A DNA stretch of 51,969 bases from an uncultured archaeon (GTDB lineage Archaea; Asgardarchaeota; Lokiarchaeia; Sigyniarchaeales; SOKP01): positions 1-51,969 of the forward strand of contig CAZWEM010000032.1 of the NCBI GenBank assembly GCA_964632315.1, written 5' to 3'. The position numbers and the translations under genes were made by a program. This document shows positions 46,986-51,201 of this stretch, piece after piece. The notes under the pieces are model-generated. The model was not told where the DNA came from, made no database searches, and worked only from the letters and a program-made list of their open reading frames with translations. Every line of letters starts with the position of its first letter. Position 1 is the first letter of the stretch.

Positions 46986-47933
46986 TTAATCAGACAACTC
47001 TTTAGTTCCTTCCCAAAAGATATAAGCTTTGCGTGTACCCGTTATCTTCTTTAGCTTAAATACAATCAATGCGCAAATATTAATAGCGATTATATTCATG
47101 GCCAAAAGAATAAAACTTCCTAAAGAAAGCAAGGGGTTATTATAAATGATTGCAAGACCTATGTTCACAGCAGGAGGCATTAACGCAACAGCAATGGCTA
47201 CTCCAATTAATGAGGTTTTGATACTGCCAGTAATTCCTATTCCAACTGCAATGCCCGCACAAATTGCTACAACTAAATCAAATAAATTAGGATATCCTCT
47301 CGCCATCATTTGTGCTGTAATACTTGGGGGATTTAGAAACACTAACCCTAATACACCTATTAGCATACCAGTACCAATTGAAATAATTAAACCTAAGAAT
47401 TGTTCTAAAATTCCAATCTTTACCATTTTGAATTCCTTGCTTGCTATGCCGAAAGATACTCCCAATATCGGACTCATTAGTGGAGATAAAATCATAGAAG
47501 CAATAAGGATAATTGCAGAATTTAAGATTAATCCAACTCCGGCAACTAAGGCTGATAATAATATAAAAGTAAAAAAATCTAGGCTAAATGTCGAAGTGTC
47601 TTCTAAATTTTTCTTAATCTCCTCAATAGTAACTCTTTGCGTAACTATTTTCTTTCTTTTTTCCTGTTCTTCTTCATTTAAAGTGATTTCTGGAATTGAT
47701 GCTTTAAGCGATAAAATATCAATTATTCCATGAATTGTTCCGACTCCACTCTTATTAAGACTCTTAACTATTTCCGGTACCATCATTCTATTACTCCTAA
47801 TTATAATGAGCGAATTATCAATCCCTTTTATTAACATAATATTCTTGATCTTTAATTCATTCTTCAAAACATCTACTATTGCTTGGATATAGTCTTCGGG
47901 GTCATTAGGCAATGTAATTTGAATCTGACTAAT
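46986..47933 (-). CDS. DUF389 / TIGR00341-family membrane protein
   Basis: GLILNSAIILIASMILSPLMSPILG, GVAIAVALMPPA. The frame extends to ATT at 47933 (ISQIQITLP), with TTG at 47912 as alternative. Confidence 0.85.
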   Translation of the reverse strand: MSQIQITLPNDPEDYIQAIVDVLKNELKIKNIMLIKGIDNSLIIIRSNRMMVPEIVKSLNKSGVGTIHGIIDILSLKASIPEITLNEEEQEKRKKIVTQRVTIEEIKKNLEDTSTFSLDFFTFILLSALVAGVGLILNSAIILIASMILSPLMSPILGVSFGIASKEFKMVKIGILEQFLGLIISIGTGMLIGVLGLVFLNPPSITAQMMARGYPNLFDLVVAICAGIAVGIGITGSIKTSLIGVAIAVALMPPAVNIGLAIIYNNPLLSLGSFILLAMNIIAINICALIVFKLKKITGTRKAYIFWEGTKELSD

Positions 47934-48210
47934 TTTTAATCACATCGTTTTTGATTATAAAAAACTCTATTTAAATAATTTAATTCGAATCTATTATTAA
48001 ATAAAGGCTTTAAATTTTCTTAGTTAAGAATTGGTTTGATTTTTTTTGCCAAATTTTCAAAAGAATTTTTTATTCTTTAATAAAAGTTTTGGAACTTGTA
48101 TAGAATAGAGTTTTGCTGACTTTTTACTGAAGAATTTTGTTTCTATCTTAGACGAAATAGATTTAGAGAGATTTTTGTCTGGTTGACTCAATACGATATT
48201 CAATTGAATA

Positions 48211-49617
48211 CTAATTATTATTAATATAATCAATAATTCTATTTTTTTTTCCAATAGCTTGACTAGCAGCTTCCTCTAGCCTTCTTTCCATTTTTTTGAT
48301 ATCTTCAGGAATCTCTTCCCCTATTTCTTGTTTAATTTTTGTATAAGCAGATTCTCTAAAACGTGGCAAAACATTTTGCTTCTCATCTTGAGAAATCATT
48401 GAAACTGTCTTTGAATCATCCACATATCCAATCTCAGCACATTCAATCTGATTTTGTGCGAGATCTTGAATGATATCATCGACGACCTCCTGGGAACAAT
48501 ATATCAATAATGCATCAAGTGATACTCCCAGATAATCGACATTTACCGATTCTAATAAATTTAATACTTTCTTGTTGACTAATGCTCTTACTTTTTCTTC
48601 ATAAATCGTAACACCACATTCTGCTTCATAATTTATTTCATAAAGGTCTCCTCTTAAACCCCCGTTAGTGACATCGCACATTGCTCGGATTTCAGAAAGA
48701 TAAGTAGAATTTAGTATTATTTTTGCTGCTTCCAAGAACTTAATGTTTAAAGTCTCCTTGAGTATCTCATGATTTCCTGAATAAATAGCTGTTGTAGTGA
48801 TAGTACCTCCTCCAGTGCCCTCAGTCATGAGAATTCTATCACCTGGTTGAATATTCCTTCTAGCCAGGATGCTTTTTGAAGCTATACCTATTGCTGCGAG
48901 CCCTCCAACAAATCGATCCCCAATGACCATATCTCCTCCAATCCTTAAAGTTGACCCAGCAGTTATAGGAACTTGAGCCAACTCTGAGATTGTTGATACA
49001 CCCGCCATAAAGTCAAATAATTTTCCAACGTCTGCATCATCTCCTAAATGTGCATCAATCATTATAGAAATAGGAATAGAACCTTTAACATAAAGATCCC
49101 TTAGTGCGGCTCTCGATACGCTTCACGCTAACATATATTGTGAATTTACGTGAAACCCACACAAGAATGGAAAATCACTTAAGCGACTGTGAATTCCTTC
49201 CATTTTGGATACAATGATTAAATCATCTTTCCCTTTAAATCCTTCAATATCACTCAATCTAACAGCACCAGCATCATCCAAGGAACTTGGTGATAAATAT
49301 GCTTTCTTCTCAGTTTCAGATAATTTTGCAATGAGTTTATGAACAAAAAAGTCTCCTGATCCCCTACAACCAACTCCTTGTTTTCCAATAGTCACATTAG
49401 CTTTATTAACATCTAAGACATATCTCATAAAAGGATCCAAAACATCCTTTACTTCACTATTTTTACATTCTTCATAAATAGCTTCTGCAAGCAAGGTTGC
49501 AGACTCTTGTTCAATGTCTTTAAAAATTTTATATTCATTAACAAGGCGTCCTATAATTTCTTCCTCAGAAAAACCCTTTTCCATCAACCTTCTGGTTAAG
49601 CCTTCTAAATCACTCAA
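48211..49617 (-). CDS. AIR-synthase-related protein (PurM/HypE/ThiL/SelD superfamily), intron-containing: exon 1 49146-49617, exon 2 48211-49115, 458 aa when spliced
   Basis: Both ORFs are in the same frame and carry one family's motifs (GVGCRGSGDF, DDAG, EGIHSRLSDFPFL, HLGDDADVGKL, GSTLRIGGDMV, DVTNGGLRGD, FRESAYT). Removing 49116-49145 gives GFHVTRAALRDLYVKG. Confidence 0.88.
49116..49145 (-). other. 30-nt archaeal bulge-helix-bulge (BHB) mRNA intron
   Basis: GUGUGG-G-UUUC-ACGU-AA^A-UUCAC-(13-nt loop)-GUGAA-GCGU-AU^C-GAGA-G-CCGCAC: outer helix, 4-bp central helix, two 3-nt bulges and a 5-bp inner helix; contains the in-frame UGA at 49123-49125. Confidence 0.85.
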
Positions 49618-50488
49618 AAATCAAACCTCTTGTATATAAATCAATTTATACTAATTTATAATAAATAAGAACCTATATAATATGTTTCCCATTTAATCTG
49701 GTTTACCTTTTATATAAAATCTTGAAAAAATTAAAAAACCATTAATTGCTTCGCCTTATTTCCTTTTATTCTTTCTATAAATCTTAATTCCTCTGGACCA
49801 TCACGGTGTCATCAATAAAAGATAATATAAATTGAACATTTTTGGGCTTAACTTTCACCCGCTTTATATTTTATTTATCAAATAATTGATTATACCTCTT
49901 AATCTTCCCACCATAAATTACCAAACGCTTTCGATTCTTAATAGGAATAACAAATATGCAGCATAATCTGACCAGATCTTGTATTATGCTATTTGGGGTA
50001 AGGAATTAAGTCAACCAAGTAATATGAAAAAGAAAATCATGATTAGGTCTATGGTTTACAATCAATTACGTATCACCTCTACACTAGAAACTATAAAAAA
50101 TAAATTTGAAGACTACTTTGTGGTAATATTTGATAATGTTTCAGAAAATAATTTTTTAGTTTCCTTTAAAGACTAGGTTTTACTCCTTGTGTTCGCTGAA
50201 AAAAATAATTTGTTGAGAATCATACTTTCGTTTAGTATTTCACAGCTTAAATGATCAACAATTATATCCAAGAAAATTATACGTTATCTCCTCCATTTTC
50301 TTTTTGAATGTAGGGGTTGAATATTTTCAATGTTGTTATAAATGATAATCGAACATTATTTCATCATATTTATACCTTATTCTCGGCAAATCATAAGAGT
50401 TAGACTAATTTTACTTATCTCTCTCTAAAAACTTGATTAAAATAGATTATTCGCAATTTAACGAATTTTTTTTATCACTTTTAAAGGG

Positions 50489-50770
50489 ATGAAGAAAACA
50501 TTTATATATGGTTATCCTGGAGGATATTATGCCGAAGTCTCGGGTGGTGAGCCGGGAAATCTTTATACTGCTCAAGTGTTAGCAACCCCTCCCAACATGG
50601 CGAATTTTCTCAATATTTGGAACTGGGGTGCCGGAGCCGTTGCTGGTATTGAAGGCACAATTTCAGGACTGGTGGGATTCTTCACGGGACAAGAATATGC
50701 CACATCAGTAGACCTCATGCCTAACTTGTGCACAGAGATCAGAAAGATGATCAAATTAAAGCCCAAATGA
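50489..50770 (+). CDS. Short hypothetical ORF or gene fragment, visibly more GC-rich than its surroundings
   Basis: 93-aa Gly-rich ORF overlapping the next ORF by 43 nt. Confidence 0.35.
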   Translation: MKKTFIYGYPGGYYAEVSGGEPGNLYTAQVLATPPNMANFLNIWNWGAGAVAGIEGTISGLVGFFTGQEYATSVDLMPNLCTEIRKMIKLKPK

Positions 50771-51201
50771 GAATCGAGATTAAGAATCTTCGAAAAATAA
50801 ACAATCAATTAGATGATATGTATCATAAATCAATTTTAAGATGTGGATTATGTAATACTATTGAAGGTGATCGAATATACTATAAAAGATTTGACAAGTG
50901 GTATTGTCTTAAATGTTTTGAAGAGAATTATAAAGATTGGGCTCCTCTGAATTGGAAACTTAGATATCCATTATTAAAAGAACAAGTGCTTGAATTCTTT
51001 CAAAAATTGGATAAAGTGGTGGGTAATTGTCAAACTAATCTAGATTTTTCAAGGGAGATCTTAACAGAAATGGGCATTTCCAAAAGCGATCAAAAATTAT
51101 TTTTAGATACCTTATATCATCATGGAGGGCATTGGGATTGTGAAATACTGCTGAATGCTTATCCAAATGTAATGGCGGATTTTGATATTGATATAGAATA
51201 A
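50728..51201 (+). CDS. Zinc-finger plus DUF2695-like protein, possibly 5'-truncated
   Basis: CGLC...YCLKC; C-terminal GGHWDCEILLNA resembles the DUF2695 GGxCDCEVLxN motif. Confidence 0.6.
   Translation: MHRDQKDDQIKAQMRIEIKNLRKINNQLDDMYHKSILRCGLCNTIEGDRIYYKRFDKWYCLKCFEENYKDWAPLNWKLRYPLLKEQVLEFFQKLDKVVGNCQTNLDFSREILTEMGISKSDQKLFLDTLYHHGGHWDCEILLNAYPNVMADFDIDIE

What the first reader, a model, noticed from the sequence alone, without database searches (positions are those of the whole stretch)
48211..49617. Splicing as an on/off switch for an uncharacterised PurM-superfamily enzyme
The intron length is a multiple of 3 but it carries a stop. Unspliced mRNA therefore yields only a 164-aa N-terminal fragment ending FHVNSQYMLA*, and full-length enzyme would depend on EndA/RtcB activity. 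The spliced junction leaves an anticodon-arm-like hairpin (UUUC/GAGA stem closing the 7-nt loop ACGUAAC), with the insertion at the position equivalent to tRNA 37/38. This suggests reverse splicing or transposition of a tRNA-type intron into a tRNA-mimicking mRNA hairpin. Inference: the gene may be coupled to tRNA-processing status, conceptually similar to non-spliceosomal XBP1/HAC1 splicing (metazoan XBP1 is ligated by RtcB). Standard pipelines would call this a pseudogene, so other such genes could be hidden.
Basis: inference. Interest (0 to 1): 0.75.

Follow-up and report, generated by a model that had tools for sequence, protein, structure and literature searches.

The report
tRNA-type mini-intron splits Asgard enzyme gene
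A 30-base intron of the kind archaea normally cut out of tRNAs interrupts a conserved PurM-like enzyme gene of an Asgard archaeon, so the enzyme can be made only after the mRNA is spliced; there is no sign that this works as a regulatory switch.

Summary
The minus-strand gene 49617..48211 is one frame broken by a 30-nt insert (49145..49116) that carries a UGA. With its exon flanks the insert folds into a complete hBHBh' motif. Cutting after the second base of each bulge gives GFHV-T-RAALRDL, the consensus of more than 100 uninterrupted orthologues.

Thirty orthologues carry the insert at the same site: the window, 27 related genomes and 2 metagenome contigs.
- Eight are 29 nt long, a frameshift, and two carry TAA, so read-through or selenocysteine cannot explain it.
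- Pairing is 96%, with 8 doubly compensated pairs.
- The exon-exon helix is kept only where the intron is present (10.7 of 11 pairs, against 6.2 of 11).
- dN/dS is 0.06-0.26 in both exons.
- The genome encodes two EndA subunits and RtcB.

The "on/off switch" and "tRNA mimic" readings are not supported. Intron-less alleles sit among intron-bearing ones within the same genera. The 7-nt loop follows from BHB geometry.

The intron travels with exon 1 across genera, and two relatives keep displaced intron-less 5' remnants.

The scan noted this same intron before on other genomes, and other such introns in this genome. I confirmed one more myself, in leuS. RNA proof is missing.

The parts
49146..49617 (-). 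Exon 1 (472 nt: TTG start, 157 codons plus the first base of Thr158). It encodes the N-terminal extension and the start of the PurM-type N domain.
   Evidence: dN/dS 0.11-0.26 against orthologues.
49116..49145 (-). 30-nt bulge-helix-bulge intron (AUUCAC...GCGUAU), phase 1, carrying an in-frame UGA.
   Evidence: It is absent from more than 100 orthologues, which read GFHVTRAALRDL across the site. Homologous 29/30-nt inserts occur in 29 other sequences.
49123..49125 (-). In-frame UGA inside the intron; it is part of the 3' strand (GUGAA) of the inner helix.
   Evidence: It is replaced by TAA in G031 and G138, and is out of frame in the eight 29-nt variants.
49104..49162 (-). Complete hBHBh' motif: outer exon-exon helix 49162-49152 / 49114-49104; central helix 49151-49148 / 49121-49118; bulges 49147-49145 (AA|A) and 49117-49115 (AU|C); inner helix 49144-49140 / 49126-49122; loop 49139-49127.
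   Evidence: Covariation on 30 sequences: 96.1% of cells paired, 8 pairs changed on both sides, 0 of 500 shuffles as high, slid controls 30-53% paired.
48211..49115 (-). Exon 2 (905 nt including the UAG stop). It holds the rest of the PurM-type N domain, with the D-x4-G-S-x-P block, and the AIRS_C domain.
   Evidence: Pfam AIRS_C 52 bits (cut-off 23.1) and weak AIRS; dN/dS 0.06-0.15.

Best explanation
The gene encodes a 458-aa PurM-superfamily ('AIR synthase-related') enzyme conserved in this Asgard (Loki-type) order. It is interrupted in codon 158, phase 1, by a 30-nt archaeal bulge-helix-bulge intron. In the pre-mRNA the last 17 exon-1 bases, the intron and the first 12 exon-2 bases fold into an hBHBh' motif. 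The tRNA-splicing endonuclease is probably an alpha/beta heteromer, since two EndA paralogues are present and one lacks the usual histidine. It cuts after the second base of each 3-nt bulge. RtcB then joins the exons (GUAA|CGAG, giving Val-Thr-Arg) and probably circularises the intron. Only spliced mRNA gives the enzyme; unspliced mRNA terminates after 164 aa. Shown by comparison: the structure, its exact position, its conservation with compensatory changes, selection on exon synonymous sites to keep the outer helix, purifying selection on both exons, and the presence of the enzymes. Inferred, not shown: that cleavage and ligation actually occur, and by these enzymes. The intron is most likely a passenger rather than a regulator. 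It arose within one family and co-segregates with an exon-1 haplotype that has moved between genera by recombination. It has also been lost or replaced repeatedly.
For: 1. The MFE fold is a canonical hBHBh', z = -3.4.
2. Canonical cuts restore the frame and the consensus GFHVTRAALRDL seen in 11 of 11 aligned intron-less orthologues (V-T/A-R) and in the wider hit list. Shifting the cuts by +1 or -1 would give K or S instead of T.
3. Thirty sequences carry the insert at the identical site: the window, 27 further genomes of one family in 6 genera, and 2 metagenome contigs. All of them splice to full-length ORFs, apart from two cut off by contig ends.
4. Eight inserts are 29 nt and two carry TAA, so only excision can rescue exon 2.
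5. Covariation: 96.1% paired, 8 pairs with double changes, 0 of 500 shuffles reaching the observed values, slid controls at most 53% paired.
6. The 11-bp exon-exon helix is 10.7 of 11 paired in 30 intron-bearing alleles but 6.2 of 11 (1.0 contiguous) in 37 intron-less alleles. Thr is always ACG and Arg always AGR when the intron is present.
7. dN/dS is 0.06-0.26 in both exons, including pairs within the 29-nt frameshift lineages.
8. The genome encodes two EndA paralogues and RtcB. Asgard archaea are reported to have (alpha-beta)2 EndA with the broad-specificity L1 loop (PMC5829648).
9. A second gene in this genome, leuS on contig C41, is split by a 30-nt BHB insert, and the Pfam profile runs contiguously across it (positions 5-47 | 48-145).
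Against: There is no RNA evidence. A scan of metagenome contigs for the spliced junction found only long DNA contigs with intron-less alleles. The G138 orthologue has an irregular inner helix next to the bulge. In this window the outer helix has one G-G mismatch. Archaeal transcription and translation are coupled, so it is unclear how the BHB forms and is processed before ribosomes reach the UGA. Sequences from related genomes are not independent, so the shuffle statistics overstate significance.
Confidence: 0.88

Rival explanations
1. Regulated switch: the intron is real, and its removal is rate-limiting and modulated, so that enzyme level follows EndA/RtcB or tRNA-processing status, as in XBP1/HAC1.
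For: Unspliced mRNA gives only a 164-aa fragment. The intron has been kept over family-level divergence. The cbf5 authors also proposed negative regulation by their intron (PMC2738675).
Against: Intron-less alleles occur next to intron-bearing ones within the same genera and clades. The intron state follows a laterally moving exon-1 haplotype, not the species. Similar mini-introns sit in unrelated housekeeping genes of this genome (leuS; others are unchecked leads). No sensor, stress-responsive nuclease or conserved intron sequence beyond the structure was found.
Confidence: 0.08
2. UGA recoding (selenocysteine or read-through) gives a 468-aa protein with a 10-residue insertion.
For: The insert is 30 nt and in frame. 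The genome has a tRNA-Sec gene (C35). Public gene calls read it through as Trp.
Against: Eight orthologues have 29 nt, a frameshift. G031 and G138 carry TAA, and G110 has two UGAs. The ten codons are absent from more than 100 orthologues and lie 7 residues before the Asp of the conserved D-x4-G-x-x-P block. Substitutions in the insert follow RNA pairing, not codons. No Rfam match, including SECIS, in 47900-49900.
Confidence: 0.02
3. Recent pseudogene: a 30-nt insertion has killed the gene.
For: There is an in-frame stop, and annotation pipelines would flag it.
Against: dN/dS is 0.06-0.26 in both exons. The insert persists in 28 genomes with intact exons. It is the only copy of the gene in the genome.
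Confidence: 0.02
4. Translational bypass: ribosomes hop from the GUA take-off codon (Val157) to the GUA that ends the insert, as in T4 gene 60, giving V-S-R.
For: The direct repeat CGUA flanks the insert, and a hairpin lies in the gap. Hopping would tolerate both 29 and 30 nt.
Against: There is no stop codon directly after the take-off codon. The conserved features are exactly those of a BHB (3-nt bulges, 4-bp helix, exon-exon helix), which bypassing does not need. The product would have Ser where orthologues have Thr.
Confidence: 0.02

Closest known systems
BHB intron in the cbf5 (pseudouridine synthase) pre-mRNA of Desulfurococcales and Sulfolobales (Watanabe 2002; Yokobori 2009, PMC2738675)
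   Same: A short BHB intron inside a coding sequence that must be removed by the tRNA-splicing machinery. It has a lineage-specific patchy distribution with secondary absence, and it confuses gene prediction.
   Different: A different gene, so the two introns are not homologous, and a different phylum (Asgard rather than Crenarchaeota). Here the intron co-segregates with the upstream exon across genera, and displaced intron-less remnants are seen. Splicing of cbf5 has been shown experimentally; here it has not.
Archaeal tRNA and rRNA BHB introns processed by EndA and RtcB
   Same: The same hBHBh' geometry (3-nt bulges, 4-bp helix, cut after bulge base 2), and the same enzymes are encoded in the genome.
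   Different: The substrate is an mRNA. The outer helix is made of coding sequence, so it is maintained through synonymous-codon choice. No sequence similarity to anything else in the genome.
IRE1-dependent XBP1/HAC1 mRNA splicing
   Same: Non-spliceosomal removal of a short mRNA intron that changes the reading frame outcome; the ligase in metazoa is RtcB.
   Different: The endonuclease is IRE1, acting on two stem-loops and stress-activated. Here the motif is a BHB, no IRE1-like sensor is implied, and there is no evidence of regulation.
Homing of group I/II introns with co-conversion of flanking exon
   Same: The intron-bearing allele replaces intron-less alleles and carries flanking exon sequence with it.
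   Different: No homing endonuclease or reverse transcriptase has been identified. The tract is one-sided, covering the whole upstream exon. The mechanism may be ordinary recombination after lateral transfer.

Membership tests
Archaeal bulge-helix-bulge (EndA-type) intron | Two 3-nt bulges on opposite strands, separated by a 4-bp helix and flanked by outer and inner helices (hBHBh') | tested here: met
   MFE fold; coordinates; the same fold in 26 of 30 orthologues by MFE.
Archaeal bulge-helix-bulge (EndA-type) intron | The structure is maintained by compensatory change | tested here: met
   96.1% paired, 8 pairs changed on both sides, 0 of 500 shuffles as high; slid controls 30-53% paired.
Archaeal bulge-helix-bulge (EndA-type) intron | Excision at the canonical bulge positions restores a functional product | tested here: met
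   GFHVTRA and a full ORF are restored in all 30, including the 29-nt frameshift variants.
Archaeal bulge-helix-bulge (EndA-type) intron | Splicing endonuclease and RtcB ligase are encoded by the host | tested here: met
   PF01974 twice (103 and 70 bits) and PF01139 (568 bits) in G000.
Archaeal bulge-helix-bulge (EndA-type) intron | Spliced RNA and a released (circular) intron are observed | not testable with these tools
   No RNA data. The metagenome scan for the junction returned DNA alleles only.
cbf5 pre-mRNA intron family | The intron lies in the cbf5/dyskerin homologue | tested here: not met
   The host gene is AIRS/AIRS_C (PurM superfamily). This is the same kind of intron, not the same intron.
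Selenoprotein gene (UGA = Sec) | The UGA aligns with Cys/Sec in orthologues and stays in frame | tested here: not met
   The whole 10-codon block is absent in orthologues; 29-nt and TAA variants exist; no SECIS-type Rfam hit.
PurM superfamily (AIR synthase-related) | AIRS N-terminal and AIRS_C domains | tested here: met
   AIRS_C at 52 bits, above the cut-off. AIRS is weak in the cut exon, but PF00586 plus PF02769 are precomputed for most uninterrupted orthologues.
ThiL / HypE / SelD / PurL / PurM equivalogs | Score above the NCBIfam curated cut-off | tested here: not met
   The best hit is ThiL at 61 bits against a cut-off of 184; HypE 44 against 252; SelD 42 against 125. The only PDB hit is HypE 3vti, E = 1e-7. 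It is an uncharacterised subfamily.

The most novel reading that the evidence does not exclude
The intron is part of a laterally spreading 'exon 1 + mini-intron' cassette that invades intron-less alleles of the gene in other genera. The invasion is homing-like but happens at the DNA level. It would be one instance of a wider colonisation of Asgard protein-coding genes by tRNA-type introns. If so, the closest archaeal relatives of eukaryotes already carry many interrupted protein genes that depend on enzymatic mRNA splicing.
Probability: 0.45. Interest if true: 0.85.

Novelty: new member of a known kind. Interest (0 to 1): 0.72.

Why it matters
In the papers I could search, enzymatic (EndA-type) splicing inside an archaeal coding sequence is documented only for cbf5. 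This case adds a second, unrelated gene, in Asgard archaea, with unusually strong comparative support.

- It shows that in-frame stops and frameshifts in these genomes can be introns rather than pseudogenes, alternative genetic codes or Sec sites. Public gene calls already mistranslate this gene with UGA read as Trp.
- It shows coding sequence being constrained at synonymous sites to build a splicing signal.
- It gives a concrete system, intron-bearing and intron-less alleles within one genus plus displaced remnants, for studying how protein-gene introns are gained, moved and lost in the lineage closest to eukaryotes.

Tried and rejected
1. A genome-wide scan of G000 for loose BHB motifs (h at least 4, H = 4, h' at least 3; intron 12-120 nt) gave 23,959 hits with no excess near 30 nt. 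An 'ORF-restoring' filter passed 272, against 284 for random positions. The filter is therefore uninformative at that stringency. Tighter settings left a handful, of which only this gene and leuS were convincing. Genes with several introns or short exons would be missed.
2. A search of JGI metagenome contigs for the spliced junction, hoping for transcripts, returned 5 long DNA contigs with intron-less alleles and no RNA evidence. The short Logan contig for P0038 also looks like DNA, because a convergent gene overlaps it.
3. Rfam with permissive filters over 47900-49900 found nothing.
4. BLAST of the intron and of the whole BHB against the genome found no other copy, so it is not a recently amplified repeat and resembles no tRNA intron in sequence.
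5. I looked for an exon-1 remnant in G000, like those in G037 and G122, and found none. The contig ends 2.35 kb upstream of the gene.
6. Pfam on the 596-aa ORF in the G037 spacer found no family.
7. The sigma-70 promoter/terminator scan is not informative for an archaeon.
8. The careful tree search did not finish. The quick IQ-TREE and FastTree trees were used instead.

Full report
**What is in the sequence**

On the minus strand, 49617..48211 is a single reading frame with one in-frame TGA at 49125..49123.

Folding 49170..49095 (minus strand) as RNA gives a complete hBHBh' motif as the minimum-energy structure:
- outer helix GUGUGGGUUUC/GAGAGCCGCAC, with one G-G mismatch;
- central 4-bp helix ACGU/GCGU;
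- two 3-nt bulges, AAA and AUC, on opposite strands;
- inner helix UUCAC/GUGAA.

The energy is -23.1 kcal/mol, against -14.4 +/- 2.6 for dinucleotide shuffles (z = -3.4).

Cutting after the second base of each bulge defines a 30-nt intron, 49145..49116. It also defines exon 1 (49617..49146, 472 nt), exon 2 (49115..48211, 905 nt) and a 458-aa product with no internal stop. An early notebook entry placed the intron one base off; the coordinates given here were checked by script.

**Is it an intron? Comparative evidence**

More than 100 Asgard orthologues of 458-467 aa read GFHV-T/A-RAxLRDL straight through the site. The predicted splice product GUA A|CG AGA gives V-T-R, the consensus. Shifting the cuts by one base would give K or S instead.

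Two public proteins (P0002, P0008) carry the same ten extra residues. Their contigs show that they were called by reading TGA as Trp.

I searched 151 genomes of the same order and found the gene in 132. In 27 of these besides the window's own genome it is interrupted at the same codon. Adding the window and the two metagenome contigs gives 30 interrupted sequences.
- Twenty-two inserts are 30 nt and eight are 29 nt.
- A 29-nt insert is a frameshift.
- G031 and G138 carry TAA instead of TGA, and G110 has two TGAs.

Read-through, selenocysteine or an alternative code therefore cannot be the common solution. This holds even though the genome has a tRNA-Sec gene. All 30 give the invariant GFHVTRA when the BHB rule is applied, and a full-length ORF apart from two cut off by contig ends.

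On an alignment of the 30 motifs, 96.1% of cells pair and 8 pairs show changes on both sides. No shuffle out of 500 reaches the observed values, and sliding the partner strand drops pairing to 30-53%. These sequences are related, so the shuffle figures overstate independence. The slid controls and the number of doubly changed pairs do not depend on that.

**Constraint on the exons**

The 11-bp exon-exon helix is 10.7 of 11 paired in the 30 intron-bearing alleles. It is only 6.2 of 11 paired, with 1.0 contiguous pair from the loop, in 37 intron-less alleles.

With the intron present, Thr158 is always ACG and Arg159 always AGR. Without it, the synonymous sites drift (ACT CGT, ACC CGT and so on). 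The groups were defined by intron presence and the measurement was exon complementarity, so the test is not circular.

dN/dS is 0.06-0.26 in both exons, including comparisons within the 29-nt lineages.

**Machinery**

The genome encodes two EndA-family proteins of about 205 aa: C28, with a Tyr/His/Lys-type catalytic region, and C8, which lacks the histidine. It also encodes RtcB.

An alpha/beta heteromer is an inference from these sequences. It fits the report that Asgard archaea have (alpha-beta)2 EndA with the L1 loop that confers broad substrate range (PMC5829648).

**The host gene**

- Pfam finds AIRS_C, plus AIRS in the uninterrupted orthologues.
- All named equivalogs (ThiL, HypE, SelD, PurL, PurM) score far below their cut-offs.
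- The only PDB sequence hit is HypE 3vti.

The intron lies 7 codons before the Asp of the D-x4-G-S-x-P block. From my own knowledge, this corresponds to the DX4GAXP signature of the superfamily.

In at least nine relatives, intron-bearing and intron-less alike, the gene is transcribed divergently from a homologue of the beta-RFAP synthase (MptG) gene, 100-790 nt away. In the window's own genome the homologue is a bona fide MptG on C29 (345 bits, cut-off 328) but is not adjacent in the assembly. A role in methanopterin-type cofactor synthesis is a hypothesis from gene neighbourhood only.

**Switch or passenger?**

Nothing supports gene-specific regulation.
- Intron-less and intron-bearing alleles are interleaved within genera g1, g2, g3, g4 and g6.
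- The UGA is merely the inner-helix strand.
- The 7-nt loop closed by UUUC/GAGA, and the "37/38" position, are arithmetical consequences of any canonical BHB. The exon stem is 11 bp, unlike an anticodon arm.

Splicing dependence is real. Modulation of splicing is untested. I give it about 0.08.

**History of the intron (beyond the original finding)**

The intron is absent from the four outgroup-family sequences and patchy in family f1. Trees made separately for the two exons disagree.
- The intron state needs 10 changes on the exon-1 tree, only 2 of them forced by well-supported branches. Seventeen of the 21 thirty-nt alleles in that tree fall in one clade that spans genera g1, g2 and g4.
- On the exon-2 tree it needs 18 changes, 11 of them forced, and is no better clustered than shuffled labels in 71 of 500 shuffles. 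The exon-2 tree follows the genera.

Sliding identity between intron-bearing alleles of different genera is 85-92% from about 540 nt upstream of the splice site (just before the start codon), through exon 1 and the intron, to roughly 50-190 nt into exon 2. Beyond that it falls to 65-75%.

The window's own allele is such a mosaic. Its exon 1 resembles alleles from genus g2. Its exon 2 resembles that of its congener G031. The breakpoint lies at or just 3' of the intron.

Among pairs from different genera:

| Pair type | Exon 1 more than 5 points more similar than exon 2 | The opposite |
|---|---|---|
| Both intron-bearing | 64 of 259 | 3 |
| Both intron-less | 0 of 290 | 47 |

Two relatives keep footprints. 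In G037 and G122 an intron-less 5' remnant of the gene ends about 27 nt after the intron site. About 2 kb of other DNA follows, and then the intact intron-bearing gene. The G037 remnant is 94.5% identical to exon 1 of its intron-less congeners G012 and G043. There the intron arrived laterally together with exon 1 and displaced the resident 5' part.

Losses also occur.
- G019 has GUA UCG at the site. That is what a DNA deletion between the CGTA direct repeats flanking the intron would leave.
- Metagenome alleles L069 and L070 have the exact splice junction GTAACGAG.

The mechanism of spread is open. It could be ordinary recombination after transfer, or an integrating element. The 596-aa ORF in the G037 spacer has no Pfam family.

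**Other interrupted genes**

My own motif scan was insensitive (see Tried and rejected). It did recover this intron and a 30-nt BHB insert in leuS (C41:26254-26283, minus strand). That insert splits the class I synthetase profile contiguously, positions 5-47 | 48-145, and restores YPMGYD|SFGLPAEN.

Earlier notes of this scan list further cases in this genome: gyrB, a histone, TBP, a chelatase, mvhD, uvrA, acetyl-CoA synthetase and an E2. They also record the same PurM-gene intron in other genomes, including one report that it spreads with the front half of the gene. I did not test the other genes. My results on this gene agree with those reports and were obtained independently.

**Literature**

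Full-text searches found BHB splicing inside a coding sequence only for crenarchaeal cbf5. That paper states that no other gene had been confirmed (PMC2738675). I found no paper on BHB introns in Asgard protein genes. A 2026 preprint deals with Asgard tRNA introns only.

**Verdict**

The intron is real with about 0.88 confidence, and the missing piece is RNA evidence. The regulatory-switch and tRNA-mimic interpretations are not supported. It is a new member of the known kind "BHB intron in an archaeal mRNA". The added points of interest are synonymous-site constraint on the exons and lateral spread with the upstream exon.

Noticed in passing
G000 contig C41:26254-26283 (minus strand); locus L073 2655-2684: The leucyl-tRNA synthetase gene is split by a 30-nt BHB-type insert carrying a stop. 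Pfam tRNA-synt_1g positions 5-47 end exon 1 and positions 48-145 start exon 2, and splicing gives YPMGYD|SFGLPAEN. The outer helix is weak (GGGC/GUUU).
   Followed up: partly
L074 (G037:C61:12300-15300) 499-1010 and L075 (G122:C5:191800-194800) about 440-1010: Displaced intron-less 5' remnants of the PurM-like gene end about 27 nt after the intron site. About 2 kb of other DNA follows, then the intact intron-bearing gene. The G037 remnant is 94.5% identical to exon 1 of its intron-less congeners.
   Followed up: partly
L074 1006-2796 (+), genome G037: A 596-aa ORF lies between the remnant and the new gene. It has four or five repeats of a module of about 60 aa containing W-C-x2-C, and a C-terminal region with a PD-(D/E)xK-like look (RPDLII...AVDFT). 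It has no Pfam family. It may be cargo of the inserted DNA.
   Followed up: partly
L048 (G019) junction; L069 and L070 (metagenome contigs Ga0209986_10001509, WOR8_10010837): Two kinds of intron-less junction occur. GUA UCG (V-S-R) is what a DNA deletion between the CGTA repeats flanking the intron would give. The exact splice junction GUAACGAG, with the exon helix still largely intact, suggests precise loss or the pre-insertion state.
   Followed up: partly
Relatives' loci L004, L014, L016-L018, L020, L022, L028, L030; G000 contig C29:978-1991: In relatives the PurM-like gene is often transcribed divergently from a homologue of the beta-ribofuranosylaminobenzene 5'-phosphate synthase (MptG) gene, with a spacer of 100-790 nt. 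In G000, mptG sits 1 kb from the start of contig C29, next to a CheY-like gene, and is not linked to the window in the assembly.
   Followed up: partly
Proteins P0002 (ENA ERZ23486235) and P0008 (Logan SRR26113683); loci L001, L002: Public gene calls for intron-bearing orthologues translate the intron with TGA read as Trp. This gives a spurious 10-residue insertion, so it is an annotation artefact.
   Followed up: yes
G000 whole genome: ARAGORN finds only 30 tRNA genes, 20 of them with called introns. It also finds a tRNA-Sec at C35:2538-2630. Many tRNAs are probably missed because they are heavily interrupted.
   Followed up: no
G000 contigs C74, C80, C90: G+C-rich contigs with long open frames in several reading frames contrast with the genome's 33% G+C. 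They are probably contamination (stated contamination 8.6%) and produced false BHB/ORF candidates.
   Followed up: no
window 50728-51201 (+): An ORF upstream of the gene has a DUF2695 match and a LIM-like zinc-finger stretch. It lies in the 2.35 kb between the gene and the contig end, where relatives have either mptG or inserted DNA.
   Followed up: no
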